In this document: one piece after another, positions 40,364-50,896 of the stretch | Numbering within the stretch: position 1 is the first letter of the stretch | How the letters are laid out: each line of letters begins with the position of its first letter | IMG/VR virus record: IMGVR_UViG_2778261571_000004 | DNA: 64,000 bases | Reading direction: 5' to 3' (one strand) | DNA from: a virus | Taxonomy: Duplodnaviria > Heunggongvirae > Uroviricota > Caudoviricetes | Program-made: the position numbers and the translations under genes | Notes under the pieces: model-generated | Told to the model about the DNA's origin: nothing | What the model saw: only the letters and a program-made list of their open reading frames with translations | The model's database searches: none

Positions 40364-40467
40364 GTATGCTGCCAGCGGTAATTGATAGTCTGTCAACGGT
40401 TCGCCGTATGCTGCCAACTGTTTTTGGTATGCTGCCAGCGGCAAATCAAGTATGCTGTCAGCGGTTG
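40364..40467. repeat. iterons upstream of rep (about 5 copies of GTATGCTGYCAGCGGT-like 16-mer), approximate
   Basis: Direct repeats read in sequence. Confidence 0.7.
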
Positions 40468-40485
40468 AATGACAAAGGTGTCCAC

Positions 40486-41580
40486 ATGTCCACAAAAAAT
40501 AAAAAAGGTAAAAATAACAAAGAAGTAGAAGATAATCTCGACAACTTTGAAGAAGGCTCCCTTGAATTGTACACAGGGGAACTTGTCCCTAATAGCAACA
40601 ATACAGTCCAACCAATTGCGTTGATGCGGCTGGGGTTGTTCGTGCCCACGCTCAAGGGTACAAAATACAGCAAGCGTAACAAGCCAAATGAGATTGATGC
40701 TTCAAAGGAGCTTGTTCAGCTCGAAGTAGCCCGTTCTGAAGGCTATTCCGATATCAAGATAACCGGTCCTCGTCTCGACATGGATCATGATTTCAAAACG
40801 TGGGTGGGCGTTGTGCGTTCGCTGGCAGAATACGGCGAACCTAACGGTCGTGTCGAGTTAAGCATCACGAAATTTGCGAAGTTTTGTGGCTATCCATCGT
40901 CACAGATCCGCAAAACACTCCGCGACCGGCTTACAAACAGTCTTTTGAAGATCATGCGTACAACTCTGTCTTTCCAGAGAACGTATGAAGAAAAGAACGT
41001 CGACGGCTCTAACAAGATCTCGCTTCTGATGGTGCACCTCATCAATAGCGTGGACTACAACGAGCAGAAAGATACGGTGGTGTTCTATGCAGAACCGAAG
41101 CTGGCCGAACTATATCGCTTTGACCATAAGGTTCTTTTGCAGTTAAAGGTTATCAATAAGCTACCACGCAAAGAAACAGCACAGGCTCTGTACACCTTCA
41201 TCGAAAGTCTTCCAACCAAGCCTGCGCCGGTATCGCTTGCTCGATTGCGTGCGCGACTCAATTTGAGTAGCAGGAATGTCAGCTCGCAGAATCAGACTAT
41301 ACGCAACGGCTTAAAAGCTCTCCAAGATTTGGGTTATCTCGAATACAGCGAGATTAAGCGTGGGCGGTCGATCTATATCCAGATTCACAGCCGCAATCCA
41401 AAACTCAAAGTCGCACCGCCAAAACCTGAAGACATCGAACCCAAAAAACCAGATGAGAAAGCCGGGGAAATTGATGCCAAACAGAACATTATCAATAAGA
41501 TAACCGAACTTTCGCAGAATTTGACGCCTGAAAATATCAAGATGATTGAGATCCTTTCCAATAGTCTCAAACTGCTTTGA
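40486..41580 (+). CDS. replication initiator protein (iteron-binding Rep)
   Basis: Gene flanked on both sides by iteron arrays; AAGGTG SD before Met41 of the track ORF; basic protein. Confidence 0.65.
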   Translation: MSTKNKKGKNNKEVEDNLDNFEEGSLELYTGELVPNSNNTVQPIALMRLGLFVPTLKGTKYSKRNKPNEIDASKELVQLEVARSEGYSDIKITGPRLDMDHDFKTWVGVVRSLAEYGEPNGRVELSITKFAKFCGYPSSQIRKTLRDRLTNSLLKIMRTTLSFQRTYEEKNVDGSNKISLLMVHLINSVDYNEQKDTVVFYAEPKLAELYRFDHKVLLQLKVINKLPRKETAQALYTFIESLPTKPAPVSLARLRARLNLSSRNVSSQNQTIRNGLKALQDLGYLEYSEIKRGRSIYIQIHSRNPKLKVAPPKPEDIEPKKPDEKAGEIDAKQNIINKITELSQNLTPENIKMIEILSNSLKLL

Positions 41581-43758: not shown

Positions 43759-46098
43759 TTACTCTTCTACTGACTCGGTGGGGGTATCTTTTGCTCTCCG
43801 GTCATCGATTGCCTGCAAAGCCGCAATGATTTCAGCCAGTGGCTTCTCCCGATACATCTCGACGATCTGCGATTTGGTGTATTTCTTGTCACCAATTTCA
43901 ACTCGCCCGCTGGCGTTCTTTGGCAGGTATCCTTCTTCCAGCATGTACTCGACGAGCGATTCGATAACGTCGAGGCCACGAGTAGGATCGAAGTAGAATT
44001 TCCAGGTGCATTTGCCATACGGTGGTGCAACTTTGTTTTTGATGCATTCTGCGCCTACGTCCTGGCCGATCTTCTCTTTACCATCCTTCATCACCGATGC
44101 ACCAAGACGGATACGTACAGAAGCGTAGAACTTCGGTGAATCTCCACCTGGCGACGTAGTAGGGTCGCCAAACATTACACCGATTTTTGTGCGAACCTGA
44201 TTCAAGAAGATGATGCAGGCGTTGTATTTGCGTGCCCACAAAGCCAGAGTAGGGAAGTTCGCACTCGTCGCACGAGCCAGTGCCGTATTGTCGTTCATGT
44301 TTAGCTGATCTTTGTCTTTGGCTGTGCCTTCAGCCATCTTTTCGAACTTCTCGGCTTTGGAGTTCGGAACCATAGACGCAAGAGAGTCAGCCACGATACA
44401 GATAGGTGCTGATTCGGGGATAAGCTCTTCATCACGAACCAATTTAAGTATTGTGCCGATCAACTCTACAGAGTCTTCGAAGGTATCTGGCTGCTTGTAT
44501 ACCCACTGACCGTCATCCTCATCTGCGTTCAGGCCATTGGCTACAGCCAGGCCAACGTCAAAACTGTTTTCATGATCGAGGAATACCGCCAGACCATCTT
44601 GTTTTTGAGCGGAGATCATCGCTGCTGTTGCAAGGAATGTGTTGTGGCTGATAATCCCGTTAGACCAGAAAGAGTGTGTTTCCGGCATCGCTACGTCGAA
44701 CGTTGGTGCTTCACCTTCCTCAATAGCCACGACTTCGTCGTAGAACAAGTTAGAGCCAATTACCGCTGCCAGTTGTGCAAACAGATGCTCGTTAAAACGA
44801 TTCTTTCTGCCAATGAAGGAGACATAGATTTCTCGCAGTTTGTCTATTCCGACACGATCGCCGCGGCCAATAACGTGGTCTACCAGAGCGTAGTCTTCAC
44901 GGGTGGTCTTGGTGAGCGACTCGTAGAGTGATTTCACTAAGCCGCTGATGTGCGGAACATAGCCTGAGTAAGTGCGGTCAAAACCAATGTCCCGTTTGGT
45001 TGCCACTGATAAACGTGCCGGAGATTCGAAACCAATCGTTGACAGAAAAAGGTCGTAATTAGAGCCACTGAATGACAGCCGGTAATATGTATTTTCATAA
45101 CCCGCGACGTGTTTTTCAGAGATAGTTGACGTAATCCCCAGATTCAGGAGCATGAGGCGAATTTGCTGTAGCAGCAGCCCACTCGCGCTCACAACCTCAA
45201 TGCAGCGACCATCATTGACGTGGCATTCCAGCTCAAAGTAGCCGCGAAGGAATGCAATTTGAGCCTCGCTATTGGCGCGACGCACACTCAACGGAACCTG
45301 CTTGCCAGCAGCTTTCTCATACTCCAGACCATATTCTTTAAAAAGCAGCGAACGCACCTCTTTGCTAAACAGCACATGGTCTTCCGAGCCGTTATGTTTT
45401 CTCGTAACTGGCATCTTGTCTGATACCAGCGAAATGAGGCGGTAGTACTCATCCTTGATGAAAGGATCTGTGTTAGAAAAATTCACTGAATTTTCAGAGG
45501 CCACGTATCCGTCAGCAATTAAATAGCCCATCAGTTTTGCGATATTGGCATCCAGGTGCTGATCGCCGAATTGATGTGTGCCAACCATTGAAGGAATCGT
45601 GTCGCCTACACTGATTTTTTCAGCATGTCGCCAGACGACATTACCTAAGTCGTCAACCACACGGATTGGGTGACGGAACGTAGCCTCGATATAACCGCCT
45701 GATGCCAGCTTAATACGCTTGAATTTGCGACGGTTGTTCCATGTCAGGTGTGAGGTCTTCTCTATCACGCCATTTTCATTGATGAGTCCAACGTTATGCT
45801 CTACATCGCGAGTAGTGCATGTCGCTTTGTACCCTTCAATCTCAAACAACTCTTTCACTGTTACCATTCCACGCTCCGTCAGCAGCATGGTGTCTGCGGT
45901 AACACATTTCCCCGCGCTTGGTGGCCCGAATACTTCTACGATACGACCACATGGGAAACCGCCATCGTAACGACCGGAAATAGCTTTGTTTAACGGAGGA
46001 AAGCCTGTGTCAATCCAATGAGTTACTTTCTGAATTTCGTCGTTGCTACCGATTTTCTTTTTCAGAGCAAGTGCCAGTGCGGATTTTCCTTTTGCCAT
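43759..46098 (-). CDS. RecA-family recombinase interrupted by an in-frame intein
   Basis: N-extein ...GRIVEVFGPPSAGK (Walker A) then Cys; C-extein resumes TFLATAAM...; exteins total 357 aa, RecA-sized. Confidence 0.8.
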   Translation of the reverse strand: MAKGKSALALALKKKIGSNDEIQKVTHWIDTGFPPLNKAISGRYDGGFPCGRIVEVFGPPSAGKCVTADTMLLTERGMVTVKELFEIEGYKATCTTRDVEHNVGLINENGVIEKTSHLTWNNRRKFKRIKLASGGYIEATFRHPIRVVDDLGNVVWRHAEKISVGDTIPSMVGTHQFGDQHLDANIAKLMGYLIADGYVASENSVNFSNTDPFIKDEYYRLISLVSDKMPVTRKHNGSEDHVLFSKEVRSLLFKEYGLEYEKAAGKQVPLSVRRANSEAQIAFLRGYFELECHVNDGRCIEVVSASGLLLQQIRLMLLNLGITSTISEKHVAGYENTYYRLSFSGSNYDLFLSTIGFESPARLSVATKRDIGFDRTYSGYVPHISGLVKSLYESLTKTTREDYALVDHVIGRGDRVGIDKLREIYVSFIGRKNRFNEHLFAQLAAVIGSNLFYDEVVAIEEGEAPTFDVAMPETHSFWSNGIISHNTFLATAAMISAQKQDGLAVFLDHENSFDVGLAVANGLNADEDDGQWVYKQPDTFEDSVELIGTILKLVRDEELIPESAPICIVADSLASMVPNSKAEKFEKMAEGTAKDKDQLNMNDNTALARATSANFPTLALWARKYNACIIFLNQVRTKIGVMFGDPTTSPGGDSPKFYASVRIRLGASVMKDGKEKIGQDVGAECIKNKVAPPYGKCTWKFYFDPTRGLDVIESLVEYMLEEGYLPKNASGRVEIGDKKYTKSQIVEMYREKPLAEIIAALQAIDDRRAKDTPTESVEE
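44641..45906 (-). mobile_element. intein (about 422 aa) with LAGLIDADG homing-endonuclease domain inside the recA-like P-loop
   Basis: Starts CVTADTMLL, ends ...ISHN followed by Thr+1; LMGYLIADGYV and FLRGYFELECHV LAGLIDADG-type motifs; coordinates from residue counting. Confidence 0.7.
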
Positions 46099-48949: not shown

Positions 48950-49157
48950 TCTAATAGGTTCCTACTTATAAAATCTGTATCAATTATATCAAACAGAGAA
49001 CGGGTTTATGGCGTCATGTCAACTTTGTTCAGGGGAAGATATTGAGATCACCGAAGATAATTAGTTGTCTTATTTTGGTAAGCTGTGCTGACCATCTTTA
49101 GGTCACATACATGAGATGGATGGGGGTGTGGCATGAACGGATGAAATTCAGTCGCCG

Positions 49158-49186
49158 TTGACAGATGTCAACACTGTGAATAGAAT
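49158..49186 (+). promoter_or_regulatory. sigma70-type promoter TTGACA-17-TAGAAT, approximate
   Basis: Consensus -35 and near-consensus -10 with 17-bp spacer about 20 nt upstream of the 49204 ATG. Confidence 0.55.
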
Positions 49187-49203
49187 ACTATTATCGGAGG
49201 CGA

Positions 49204-49428
49204 ATGAAGCAACATCCGAATAAGCATATTCAAGCAGCCATTGACTATGCATTAAGTAAAGGCTGGATCTGGGTAGCAGCTGGTGGTGCTGCACATTGTT
49301 TTTGCAGACTGCGATGCGGTAATCCAGAAGGTGAACACAAAACTCACCAAATGAGCGTATGGTCGACTCCGGGTAATCCCGAAAACCATGCCAAACAGAT
49401 CAAACGAATGGTTGATCGTTGTAAATGA
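49204..49428 (+). CDS. small protein, HicA-like toxin candidate (tentative)
   Basis: 74 aa; GW.WV..GG.AH pattern resembling YcfA/HicA; plus-strand in a minus-strand block. Confidence 0.35.
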   Translation: MKQHPNKHIQAAIDYALSKGWIWVAAGGAAHCFCRLRCGNPEGEHKTHQMSVWSTPGNPENHAKQIKRMVDRCK

Positions 49429-49488
49429 TTTCAAGGCGGCATTAGCCGCCTTTTGCAGAAACTGTCCAACTATCTTCAAAGGAAAACT

Positions 49489-50052
49489 ATGGCGCTTTAT
49501 AACTTCACTCTGACGCTCTCAGGCGTATCGTATGAGACGGAAGGACTGGAAGACGCGCTGTACCAAAACGGCTGTGACGATGCGCTAATTTGCGCATATG
49601 GAAACTCCGTCTATGTAGAATTTGACCGCGAAGCACAATCACTTGATGCAGCTATCGCATCTGCGGTCGACAATATTGAATCAGCCGGTATCGGTGCAAT
49701 TGTTGAATCCGTCGACTCGGCTCTTGTGGGCTTAAGCGATATCGCGGAACTGACAGACCTGTCTCGCCAGGCAGTGGCGTTGCTCAAAGACGGTAAGCGC
49801 GGAAGCGGCGACTTCCCTTGCCCTGTACAACGCATAAAAGGCCAGTCTCCTCTCTGGGATTGGGCTGATGTGGCTGAATGGCTCATGAATAACGGACGAC
49901 TTAAAGAGGGCGATCAAATTGTCCAAAATGCCCGAACTTTGAGTAAATGGAATCTGGCGCTTCGAAACAGCGTCTCGAAAGATTTCAACGAAATAGAGCA
50001 AATTGCGGAGAAACTGATTAAACGCCGCAAAGATATTGCGAAATGCGCATAA
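49489..50052 (+). CDS. HTH-containing protein, candidate antitoxin/regulator partner (start at Met13 of track ORF)
   Basis: AAGGAAA SD; C-terminal LSDIAELTDLSRQAVALL helix-turn-helix-like segment. Confidence 0.4.
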   Translation: MALYNFTLTLSGVSYETEGLEDALYQNGCDDALICAYGNSVYVEFDREAQSLDAAIASAVDNIESAGIGAIVESVDSALVGLSDIAELTDLSRQAVALLKDGKRGSGDFPCPVQRIKGQSPLWDWADVAEWLMNNGRLKEGDQIVQNARTLSKWNLALRNSVSKDFNEIEQIAEKLIKRRKDIAKCA

Positions 50053-50381
50053 TGATGCCCGCCAATTGGCGGGCATCTGTTCTCTGTAAAGGTGTCTGGC
50101 ATCGTCTGGTTCGTTAACGTTTACTAAACCAATGGTGACAAAAATTAGTTATCTTTGAAAAATAAAGGTTGCATGAAAAGAAGGGGTATGCGTTAATAGC
50201 ATCGTTGGTTTGCAAGACAGACCTTATGTAAGCAGTTTTAGTAAAGCAGTCTCAGTTCAGTGTTATCTTCTGATTTCCCTTCTTCGTGAGTCTCCTCCTT
50301 AAGTGCCTAAGTAAGTCCCAATCTATACAGATCAAATTCTCGCCGCACTATGTGGCTCACAAAATTAAGAAGGTAATATCT

Positions 50382-50597
50382 ATGTCTAATAAAATGACTG
50401 GTTTAGTAAAATGGTTTAACTCTGATAAAGGCTTTGGCTTTATTTCTCCTGCTGATGGCAGTAAAGATGTTTTTGTACATTTTTCGGCAATTCAGAGTAA
50501 TAATTTCCGCACTTTGGAAGAAGGCCAGCAGGTCGAATTCTCTATCGAGAATGGTGCTAAAGGCCCAGCAGCAGCAAATGTCGTTGCTCTAAGCTGA
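50382..50597 (+). CDS. cold-shock protein, CspA family
   Basis: [20 protein letters not shown]...[11 protein letters not shown]1/RNP2 motifs; long 5' leader. Confidence 0.85.
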
Positions 50598-50873
50598 TTC
50601 AACGCTGATGATCCTCATTTCTACAATAACGAAGACGGTGTAAGCCTGAGTGGATAGATTTGTAGGATTGTACAAGTTGAATAAATTAGCATGGTAAGGC
50701 CATGCTAATTAAATCGACACAACGGCCAGTTTATTCCATAAAAGTGAATTGCCCATTGTGGCGAAATGCGGGGTTGCCGCATGAATAGTCAAAGGCAGAA
50801 GCTAACTGCCGGCATGGCAAAACAAAGTGCGTAAGAGGAGTGACTTCCTCAACAAGCGCCATAATTCTTTATA

Positions 50874-50896
50874 AACCCGCCAACAGGCGGGTTTTC
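50874..50896. terminator. bidirectional rho-independent terminator (cccgcc..ggcggg + T-run), approximate
   Basis: Between convergent csp and dnaE-like genes. Confidence 0.6.

What the first reader, a model, noticed from the sequence alone, without database searches (positions are those of the whole stretch)
49158..50052. Oppositely oriented two-gene cassette with its own strong sigma70 promoter: HicA-like small protein plus HTH protein
This is the only plus-strand protein-coding pair inside a long minus-strand block. It is driven by a near-consensus TTGACA-17-TAGAAT promoter; the first gene (74 aa) has a GW..GG.AH pattern reminiscent of HicA-type mRNA interferases and the second (187 aa) has a C-terminal HTH. 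Order (small toxin-like gene first) matches HicAB-type toxin-antitoxin, but the match is weak and the second protein does not look like canonical HicB, so it may be an uncharacterised addiction or defence pair.
Basis: inference. Interest (0 to 1): 0.5.

Follow-up and report, generated by a model that had tools for sequence, protein, structure and literature searches.

The report
Self-repressed toxin-antitoxin-like pair on phage-plasmid
A small two-gene cassette on an E. coli phage-plasmid looks and evolves like a self-regulated toxin-antitoxin module, but it belongs to a widespread, untested family (PADLOC candidate PDC-M06) that is not a true HicA/HicB pair, although the public record labels it so.

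Summary
There are two co-oriented genes, 49204-49428 (74 aa) and 49489-50052 (187 aa). They sit behind the window's only 11/12 sigma-70 match (49158-49186) and end at a terminator (50054-77). The window is an SSU5-type phage-plasmid, 99.8% identical here to E. coli LF82 phage Cyrano. That record calls the genes HicA/HicB, and both are transcribed in lysogens.

In 78 of 80 loci from many phyla, gene 1 is followed by gene 2's N-domain. The HTH is optional. The palindrome GTTGAC-N4-GTCAAC, which overlaps the -35, occurs in 45 of 52 HTH-bearing loci, in 0 of 26 HTH-less loci, and nowhere else in 1.15 Mb. Gene 1 is broken while gene 2 is intact nine times; the reverse occurs once, and that case is ambiguous.

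Best reading: an autorepressed type II toxin-antitoxin-like module, HicAB-like in logic but with an unrelated antitoxin domain. Toxicity is untested.

The parts
49157..49172 (+). Palindromic operator GTTGACA-GA-TGTCAAC, which overlaps the -35 hexamer. Proposed binding site of the gene 2 HTH (autorepression).
   Evidence: It is the only exact GTT[GT]AC-N4-GT[AC]AAC site in the window. The same palindrome lies 27-53 nt upstream of gene 1 in 45 of 52 loci whose partner has the HTH, and in 0 of 26 loci whose partner lacks it. It has no other occurrence in 1.15 Mb of fetched loci.
49158..49186 (+). Sigma-70 promoter TTGACA-17 nt-TAGAAT (11 of 12 consensus positions).
   Evidence: The layout is conserved in relatives. 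Both genes are transcribed in LF82 lysogens (PMC9928086).
49196..49200 (+). Ribosome-binding site GGAGG of gene 1.
   Evidence: Read from the sequence. GGAGG is conserved upstream of the start codon in Enterobacterales relatives.
49204..49428 (+). Gene 1, 74 aa. A small His/Cys-rich protein with an alpha-beta-beta-(short alpha)-beta-alpha fold. Proposed toxin (PDC-M06A, PHROG 5923, CYRAN_51).
49433..49452 (+). Intergenic hairpin AAGGCGGC-ATTA-GCCGCCTT followed by TTTTG. A possible partial terminator or mRNA-stabilising element between gene 1 and gene 2.
   Evidence: Predicted at -16.1 kcal/mol. A hairpin at the same place in Enterobacterales relatives shows compensatory changes in 5 of 6 pairs. 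The published transcript ratio is 30x for gene 1 versus 14x for gene 2.
49489..50052 (+). Gene 2, 187 aa. Ferredoxin-like N-domain (residues 1-75), winged HTH (about 80-135) and a C-terminal helical hairpin (143-186). Proposed antitoxin and autorepressor (PDC-M06B, PHROG 2620, CYRAN_50).
50054..50077 (+). Intrinsic-terminator-like hairpin that ends the two-gene unit.
   Evidence: 10-bp stem with 8 GC pairs, followed by a T-rich tail.

Best explanation
The cassette is an autoregulated type II toxin-antitoxin-like module carried as a 'moron' by an SSU5-type phage-plasmid.

Proposed mechanism:
- A strong promoter drives gene 1, then gene 2.
- Gene 2's HTH binds the palindrome GTTGACA-GA-TGTCAAC across the -35 and represses the operon. 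The comparative evidence for this step is strong.
- Gene 2's ferredoxin-like N-domain binds and neutralises the gene 1 protein. This is inferred from universal co-occurrence.
- Gene 1 is the harmful partner. This is inferred from asymmetric gene decay.
- Gene 1 probably acts on RNA through a HicA-like alpha-beta-beta-beta-alpha domain, using conserved His residues (H31, plus H4 and H62). A Cys/His cluster (C38, C/H48, C73) probably holds zinc. This last step is speculative.
- On the low-copy phage-plasmid the module would favour plasmid retention and/or abort or exclude competing phages.

It works like HicAB, but the antitoxin's neutralising domain is unrelated to HicB. It is therefore a distinct family, the one catalogued without testing as PADLOC PDC-M06.
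For: Identity and expression:
- The window is 99.8% identical to Cyrano/pLF82 over the cassette.
- Both genes are expressed 30x and 14x above local background in lysogens (PMC9928086).
- Both proteins hit PDC-M06A/B, at E 1e-19 and 1e-32.

Pairing:
- Gene 1 is immediately followed by a gene 2 homologue in 78 of 80 loci. These span Gammaproteobacteria, Neisseria, Planctomycetota, Latescibacterota, Anaerolineae, Balneolales and Nitrospinota.
- The genes often overlap by 4 nt.
- The partner comes in three sizes: N-domain only (about 85 aa), N-domain plus HTH (about 148 aa), and N-domain plus HTH plus helices (about 185 aa). The same modularity is described for HicB classes 1 and 3.

Operator:
- The exact palindrome is present in 45 of 52 HTH-bearing loci and 0 of 26 HTH-less loci (Fisher p = 1e-14).
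- It has zero other hits in 1.15 Mb of loci and occurs once in the window.

Decay asymmetry:
- Gene 1 is pseudogenised or deleted with gene 2 intact in L022, L059, L063, L084, L047, L109, L129, L133 and L145.
- The reverse occurs only in L132, which is ambiguous.
- Gene 2 is the larger mutational target. If gene 1 takes about 30% of random hits, my estimate of the binomial chance of at least 9 of 10 events falling on it is about 1e-4.

Context:
- Immediate neighbours are mostly unrelated housekeeping genes, which fits a mobile, selfish two-gene insertion.
- In Histophilus the pair sits beside YefM-YoeB in a P2-like prophage.
- In E. coli it is found in 134 of 5426 genomes, always on plasmids of about 100-140 kb.

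Against: - No toxicity, binding or cleavage data exist for any member. PDC-M06 is an untested candidate.
- In Enterobacterales a hairpin sits between the genes, and gene 1 mRNA is about twice as abundant as gene 2 mRNA. That is not the antitoxin excess usually expected.
- One locus (L132) has an apparently intact gene 1 with a 5'-deleted gene 2.
- The decay asymmetry would also arise if gene 2 simply had an independent useful function.
- The operator versus HTH correlation is partly phylogenetic.
Confidence: 0.6

Rival explanations
1. It is a genuine HicAB system, as annotated in the Cyrano GenBank record: gene 1 is a HicA mRNA interferase and gene 2 is a HicB antitoxin.
For: - The record names the genes 'HicA toxin protein' and 'putative antitoxin HicB'.
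- The gene order, sizes, optional DNA-binding domain and palindromic operator match HicAB classes 1 and 3.
Against: - There is no Pfam HicA_toxin or HicB hit.
- hhalign against E. coli HicA/HicB and against a HicA alignment is not significant in the collinear register.
- Foldseek is negative.
- Gene 1 carries a conserved Cys/His cluster and a beta2-beta3 insertion; the E. coli-type HicA alignment A6 has no equivalent conserved cysteine.
Confidence: 0.1
2. Its primary role is anti-phage defence (abortive infection or superinfection exclusion), as the PADLOC candidate label PDC-M06 implies. In this reading the phage-plasmid uses it to protect its host from other phages.
For: - Both proteins match the PDC-M06 models.
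- The candidate was derived from cassettes embedded in BREX/DISARM/type I RM loci.
- It is expressed in lysogens, as morons are.
- HicA-type modules have been proposed to act in defence.
Against: - It has never been tested.
- Of the 150 immediate neighbours scanned, only 5 hit any PADLOC model, and most are housekeeping genes.
- This reading is not exclusive of the toxin-antitoxin mechanism; it concerns biological role rather than how the module works.
Confidence: 0.25
3. It is a non-toxic regulatory pair. Gene 2 is a transcription factor and gene 1 is a small zinc-binding modulator (co-repressor or anti-repressor) of it, with no addiction or killing function.
For: - There is strong evidence for operator binding by gene 2.
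- Orphan gene 2 copies keep the operator and promoter (L129, L133).
- Gene 1 has a Cys/His cluster typical of small zinc-binding regulators.
- Gene 1 mRNA is at least as abundant as gene 2 mRNA.
Against: - In about a third of loci the partner has no DNA-binding domain at all, yet gene 1 and the N-domain stay paired. The conserved core is therefore a protein-protein pair, not a regulator.
- The window holds only one operator, the pair's own, so there is no regulon to control.
- The patchy, mobile distribution among unrelated neighbours fits a selfish module.
Confidence: 0.18
4. Gene 2 is an excisionase or recombination directionality factor, following the PHROG 2620 label 'excisionase and transcriptional regulator'.
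For: - PHROG 2620 matches at E 2e-105, with weak hits to other excisionase-type PHROGs over residues 71-150.
- Some NCBI records name homologues 'AlpA family'.
Against: - The element is a plasmid-prophage.
- No integrase is adjacent in the stretch of the Cyrano record examined, and no integrase family is among the 25 commonest Pfam families of the 150 immediate neighbours scanned.
- The only conserved DNA site is a palindrome in the pair's own promoter.
- The HTH is dispensable in many lineages.
Confidence: 0.03

Closest known systems
HicAB type II toxin-antitoxin systems (Pfam PF07927 HicA_toxin plus HicB; classes 1 and 3 of Gerdes 2023, bioRxiv 10.1101/2023.12.08.570793)
   Same: - The toxin-like gene comes first.
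- The first protein is small (about 60-85 aa) with an alpha-beta-beta-beta-alpha architecture and a conserved His at the start of beta2.
- The partner has an N-terminal neutralising domain and an optional C-terminal DNA-binding domain.
- A palindromic operator lies in the pair's own promoter.
- The genes are often overlapping or coupled.
- The pair occurs on phages, plasmids and chromosomes.
   Different: - There is no significant sequence or profile similarity to HicA or HicB.
- The partner's N-domain is ferredoxin-like, not a partial RNase H fold.
- The HTH is of the excisionase/MerR-like winged type rather than Xre or RHH. This rests on weak PHROG hits and the secondary-structure pattern.
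- Gene 1 has a beta2-beta3 insertion, an N-terminal H-P-N-K motif and a conserved Cys/His cluster.
PADLOC-DB phage defence candidate PDC-M06 (CAS_00046, FAM_01986>>FAM_01364; Payne et al. 2024, bioRxiv 10.1101/2024.01.29.577857)
   Same: Both proteins match its two HMM sets (A: E 1e-19; B: E 1e-32) in the same order, so this cassette is a member of that catalogued family.
   Different: PDC-M06 is only a bioinformatic candidate, reported as 497 cassettes, with no function, fold or mechanism described. In the loci examined here the pair is mostly not next to defence genes.
'Toxin-first' type II modules with an HTH antitoxin (HigBA, MqsRA)
   Same: Reverse gene order, an antitoxin that carries an HTH, and autorepression at palindromes that overlap the promoter.
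   Different: The toxin folds are unrelated (RelE-like). No similarity of either protein to these was detected in any search here.

Membership tests
HicA toxin (Pfam PF07927) | Sequence match to the HicA_toxin profile | tested here: not met
   No PF07927 hit for gene 1, nor for any of 127 family members at E<=1. As a control, E. coli HicA relatives do carry PF07927. hhalign against a HicA alignment finds only a 19-residue out-of-register match (probability 62%); the collinear alignment has probability 0.1%.
HicA toxin (Pfam PF07927) | [quoted passage not shown] | tested here: inconclusive
HicA toxin (Pfam PF07927) | Catalytic histidine at the start of beta2 | tested here: inconclusive
   H31 is present in 121 of 127 members and sits at the beta1-beta2 junction. 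The collinear hhalign alignment puts it on E. coli HicA H23, but that alignment is not significant.
HicA toxin (Pfam PF07927) | mRNA interferase activity and growth arrest on expression | not testable with these tools
   No experimental data were found for any member.
HicB antitoxin | N-terminal partial RNase H fold (beta-beta-beta-alpha-beta) | tested here: not met
HicB antitoxin | DNA-binding domain that autorepresses through a palindromic operator in the promoter | tested here: met
   This is met at the level of comparative genomics. The palindrome that overlaps the -35 co-occurs with the HTH (45 of 52 versus 0 of 26 loci). Binding itself was not tested.
Type II toxin-antitoxin module (generic) | Conserved adjacent pair of small co-transcribed genes that moves as a unit | tested here: met
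   78 of 80 genome loci and 48 of 58 viral loci carry both genes intact and adjacent, in unrelated neighbourhoods.
Type II toxin-antitoxin module (generic) | Asymmetric decay: the toxin can be lost alone, the antitoxin cannot | tested here: met
   Nine loci have gene 1 broken or deleted with gene 2 intact. One ambiguous locus shows the reverse (L132). Two lineages have lost both genes.
Type II toxin-antitoxin module (generic) | Toxicity of one partner, neutralised by direct binding of the other | not testable with these tools
   This needs expression and rescue assays and pull-downs.
PADLOC PDC-M06 candidate defence system | Both component HMMs match, in order | tested here: met
   PDC-M06A gives E 1.2e-19 over residues 2-74. 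PDC-M06B gives E 1.3e-32 over residues 3-161.
PADLOC PDC-M06 candidate defence system | Association with defence loci, or anti-phage activity | tested here: not met
   Only 5 of the 150 immediate neighbours scanned hit any PADLOC model. Anti-phage activity has never been assayed.
Excisionase / recombination directionality factor (PHROG 2620 label) | Linked to an integrase and att sites | tested here: not met
   No integrase is adjacent in the Cyrano record stretch examined. No integrase family is among the 25 commonest Pfam families of the 150 immediate neighbours scanned. The element is an extrachromosomal phage-plasmid.

The most novel reading that the evidence does not exclude
PDC-M06 is a previously unrecognised toxin-antitoxin family, found across many bacterial phyla. 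Its toxin would be a zinc-stapled, highly diverged (or convergent) HicA-like RNA-targeting domain. It would be neutralised by a ferredoxin-like antitoxin domain that has no relation to HicB. In Enterobacterales a dedicated GTTGAC-N4-GTCAAC operator and an intergenic hairpin would set the toxin:antitoxin ratio. On SSU5-type phage-plasmids (including Y. pestis pMT1 relatives) it would act as an addiction and/or phage-exclusion module.
Probability: 0.4. Interest if true: 0.6.

Novelty: new variant of a known kind. Interest (0 to 1): 0.45.

Why it matters
If gene 1 is toxic and gene 2 neutralises it, this adds a new antitoxin domain and a new, zinc-site-bearing toxin lineage to the type II repertoire. 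The family is large: 712 clusters at 50% identity, across many phyla.

It would also correct the 'HicA/HicB' label now in the Cyrano record, and the 'excisionase' and 'RuBisCO small subunit' labels found on relatives.

It would give a testable maintenance or exclusion function for a cassette carried by clinically common SSU5-type phage-plasmids of E. coli, Enterobacter, Klebsiella and Yersinia pestis.

The operator defined here gives an immediate handle for reporter and EMSA experiments.

Tried and rejected
- Pfam and NCBIfam scans of both proteins found nothing meaningful.
- PDB sequence-profile searches with both family alignments gave only chance-level hits: lectins, RuBisCO small subunit and vaginolysin.
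- hhalign of the gene 1 family against a single E. coli HicA, and of the gene 2 family against E. coli HicB, was negative.
- hhalign against a 31-sequence HicA alignment consistently pairs gene 1's N-terminal R-H-P-N-K-E-I motif with HicA's C-terminal P-R-H-P-x-x-E-I motif (probability 62%). This is out of register, so I treat it as motif resemblance, not homology.
- Foldseek of the gene 1 model against the PDB gave no significant match.
- Searching the literature for 'PDC-M06' returned no papers. Only a supplementary table of the PADLOC embedding paper lists it.
- A search for further operator copies in the window, which would reveal a regulon, found none.
- The excisionase reading was rejected because there is no integrase context.
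It was repeated with A1, which biases the sampled loci towards the M-x-x-H-P-N-K-[HE]-I-[QR] N-terminus.

Full report
WHAT IS THERE

The flagged interval holds two co-oriented + strand genes. Gene 1 runs from 49204 to 49428 (74 aa). Gene 2 runs from 49489 to 50052 (187 aa from the ATG; the ORF opens at a TTG at 49453).

Upstream lies TTGACA-17-TAGAAT at 49158-49186. This is the only site with at least 11 of 12 consensus matches on either strand of the 64-kb window. Block shuffles give about 1.8 such sites per window, so the match alone proves little. A GGAGG ribosome-binding site sits at 49196-49200. A GC-rich terminator-like hairpin at 50054-50077 closes the unit.

The statement that this is the only + strand coding in the block needs correcting. 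A cspA-like gene with a complete cspA thermoregulator leader follows on the + strand (Pfam CSD E 1e-33; Rfam RF01766, 187.6 bits, at 50204-50622). A repA-like ORF at 40366-41580 is also on the + strand.

WHERE IT COMES FROM

The cassette is 99.8% identical to Escherichia phage Cyrano (OV696614). Cyrano is the SSU5-type phage-plasmid pLF82 of the adherent-invasive E. coli strain LF82 (PMC9928086). Over the same stretch it is 100% identical to several E. coli plasmids of about 110 kb.

The Cyrano record names the genes 'HicA toxin protein' (CYRAN_51) and 'putative antitoxin HicB' (CYRAN_50). The LF82 paper lists them among morons transcribed in lysogens, at 30x and 14x the local prophage background. 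The promoter is therefore active in the plasmid state.

In 5426 complete E. coli genomes the cassette occurs in 134, always on plasmids and never on chromosomes. In PLSDB it is on 313 plasmids, mostly non-mobilisable and about 100-140 kb. These come from Escherichia, Enterobacter, Yersinia (including Y. pestis), Citrobacter, Klebsiella and Cronobacter.

WHAT THE PROTEINS ARE

Pfam and NCBIfam recognise neither protein. PHROGs places them in phrog_5923 (unknown function) and phrog_2620 ('excisionase and transcriptional regulator').

PADLOC-DB matches both, as PDC-M06A (E 1e-19) and PDC-M06B (E 1e-32). PDC-M06 is one of 145 untested 'phage defence candidates'. These were derived from cassettes embedded in BREX, DISARM or type I RM loci. 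PDC-M06 is listed as CAS_00046, with 497 cassettes.

Gene 1's family is large: 712 representatives at 50% identity with E<=1e-3. Nearly invariant residues are H4, K7, W21, H31, C38, C/H48, T55, P56, H62 and C73. C38, C/H48 and C73, with H45 or a C-terminal C-x-H, look like a structural zinc site. That is inference only.

Profile-profile comparison with a HicA alignment gives only a short out-of-register motif match (R-H-P-N-K-E-I against P-R-H-P-x-x-E-I). The collinear alignment would put H31 on the catalytic H23 of E. coli HicA, but it is not significant. HicA-likeness is therefore a reasonable lead, not an established membership.

Gene 2's model (pLDDT 91.5) has three parts:
- a beta-alpha-beta-beta-alpha-beta N-domain (residues 1-75);
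- a winged HTH (about residues 80-135);
- two long C-terminal helices.

COMPARATIVE ANATOMY

A scan of one genome per species returned 192 relatives of gene 1, and 80 loci were fetched. In 78 of these, gene 1 is followed directly by a gene 2 homologue.

What is conserved everywhere is gene 2's N-domain:
- In Planctomycetota, Latescibacterota, Anaerolineae and Nitrospinota the partner is about 85 aa, the N-domain alone.
- In Pasteurellaceae, Neisseria and Acinetobacter it is about 148 aa, the N-domain plus the HTH. It often overlaps gene 1 by 4 nt.
- In Enterobacterales it is about 185 aa, with the extra helices.

The conserved core is thus a protein pair, with an optional DNA-binding add-on. 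The same modular logic is described for HicB classes 1 and 3.

THE OPERATOR

The window's -35 lies inside a perfect palindrome, GTTGACA-GA-TGTCAAC (49157-49172). The pattern GTT[GT]AC-N4-GT[AC]AAC lies within 150 nt upstream of gene 1 (27-53 nt before the start codon) in 45 of 52 loci whose partner has the HTH. It is found in 0 of 26 loci whose partner lacks the HTH (Fisher p = 1e-14). The seven exceptions examined carry degenerate versions.

The pattern occurs nowhere else in 1.15 Mb of fetched sequence, and only once in the window. Flanking sequence is unalignable between these lineages. This is strong comparative evidence that the HTH autorepresses the operon at this site, although related lineages are not independent samples. 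The single copy in the window argues against a wider regulon.

WHICH PARTNER IS DANGEROUS

Gene 1 carries a premature stop or a frameshift, with gene 2 intact, in the following loci:
- L022, L059 and L063 (three Providencia isolates, each with a different lesion);
- L084;
- L047;
- L109.

Gene 1 is cleanly absent, with gene 2 kept behind the same operator and promoter, in L129 and L133. It is 5'-truncated in L145.

The reverse pattern appears once, in a metagenomic contig (L132). There gene 2 has lost its first 16 or so codons, and gene 1's start region is also altered. Both genes are destroyed in L078 and in a lineage of SSU5-like E. coli plasmids that keeps only a gene 2 remnant.

Gene 2 is the larger mutational target, so nine to one is unlikely under neutrality. 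Assuming about 30% of hits fall on gene 1, my estimate of the chance is about 1e-4. This is the pattern expected for a toxin (gene 1) and an antitoxin (gene 2). It would also arise if gene 2 simply had an independent useful function.

CONTEXT

Of the 150 immediate neighbours scanned across the genome loci, most are unrelated housekeeping genes: LysR regulators, short-chain dehydrogenases, Mur ligases, Hda, ArgRS and MurJ. Only 5 hit any PADLOC model. This fits a mobile, selfish two-gene insertion better than a defence-island resident.

In Histophilus the pair sits next to YefM-YoeB in a P2-like prophage. In SSU5-type elements it occupies a variable slot between the uvsY-like gene and dnaE.

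AN ODDITY

In Enterobacterales a GC-rich hairpin follows gene 1's stop codon (window 49433-49452, -16 kcal/mol). The stems covary between relatives: 5 of 6 pairs show compensatory changes. The U-tract is variable. Together with the published 30x versus 14x transcript levels, this suggests attenuation or differential mRNA stability in favour of gene 1. That is the opposite of the usual antitoxin excess, and I count it against a simple toxin-antitoxin model.

VERDICT

The best-supported explanation, at about 0.6 confidence, is an autorepressed type II toxin-antitoxin-like module. It works like HicAB but is not a HicAB member: the antitoxin's neutralising domain has a different fold, and the toxin's link to HicA is weak.

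My own estimates for the individual steps are:
- autorepression at the palindrome, about 0.85;
- interaction of gene 1 with the N-domain, about 0.8;
- toxicity of gene 1, about 0.55-0.6;
- RNase chemistry and a zinc site, speculative.

The biological role on the phage-plasmid (addiction versus phage exclusion) is open. The defence label rests on an untested candidate list.

The family was already catalogued (PDC-M06, PHROGs) and was already annotated, loosely, as HicAB. New here are the domain dissection, the operator, the decay asymmetry and the correction of the HicB assignment.

Noticed in passing
window 50204-50622 (+); CDS 50383-50597: A cspA-like cold-shock gene with a full-length cspA thermoregulator 5' leader (Rfam RF01766, 187.6 bits against a gathering score of 78; Pfam CSD E 1e-33). 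It lies directly downstream of the pair on the + strand. No CDS is annotated at this position in the Cyrano record, so a phage-plasmid appears to carry a temperature-sensing csp gene.
   Followed up: partly
window 49433-49452 (+): A hairpin, AAGGCGGC-ATTA-GCCGCCTT, sits immediately after gene 1's stop codon. It is conserved, with compensatory changes, in Enterobacterales relatives, while other lineages have a 4-nt gene overlap instead. It may attenuate transcription or stabilise the gene 1 mRNA; published transcript levels are 30x for gene 1 and 14x for gene 2.
   Followed up: partly
L088 (NZ_CP101235.1 17893-18452) and viral loci L139-L143: Another lineage of SSU5-like E. coli plasmids keeps only a remnant of gene 2 in the same slot between the uvsY-like gene and dnaE. 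In L088 the remnant is 5'-truncated and frameshifted, with the promoter, operator and gene 1 deleted. L139-L143 likewise lack gene 1, the operator and the first ~20 residues of gene 2. The cassette is therefore dispensable for the phage-plasmid.
   Followed up: yes
P0039 (Shewanella sp. 1180_01 homologue of gene 1): NCBI names this homologue 'ribulose bisphosphate carboxylase small subunit'. 14 of 127 family members give weak sub-threshold hits to Pfam RuBisCO_small, so this is almost certainly a mis-annotation.
   Followed up: partly
window 40366-41580 (+): A 404-aa + strand ORF matches phrog_775 'replication helicase' (E 6e-133). Gene coordinates here do not map collinearly onto Cyrano, whose RepA is 351 aa. 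The window is therefore a close relative of Cyrano rather than Cyrano itself in this region.
   Followed up: partly
window 43759-46098 (-): The RecA-like gene is 779 aa. The homologous 780-aa gene in a related Enterobacter phage-plasmid carries Pfam Intein_splicing and LAGLIDADG_3 together with RecA_N (L002), so this gene appears to hold an intein with a homing endonuclease. In the same relatives dnaE is interrupted by an HNH/NUMOD4 gene.
   Followed up: no
window 50873-50894: A GC-rich hairpin (AAACCCGCC-AACA-GGCGGGTTT) with T-runs lies between the convergent csp gene and dnaE. It is probably a bidirectional terminator.
   Followed up: no
L071 (Pirellulales MAG) 1235-2451: Two tandem copies of the gene 1 / short-partner pair sit on one contig, suggesting local duplication of the cassette in Planctomycetota.
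   Followed up: no
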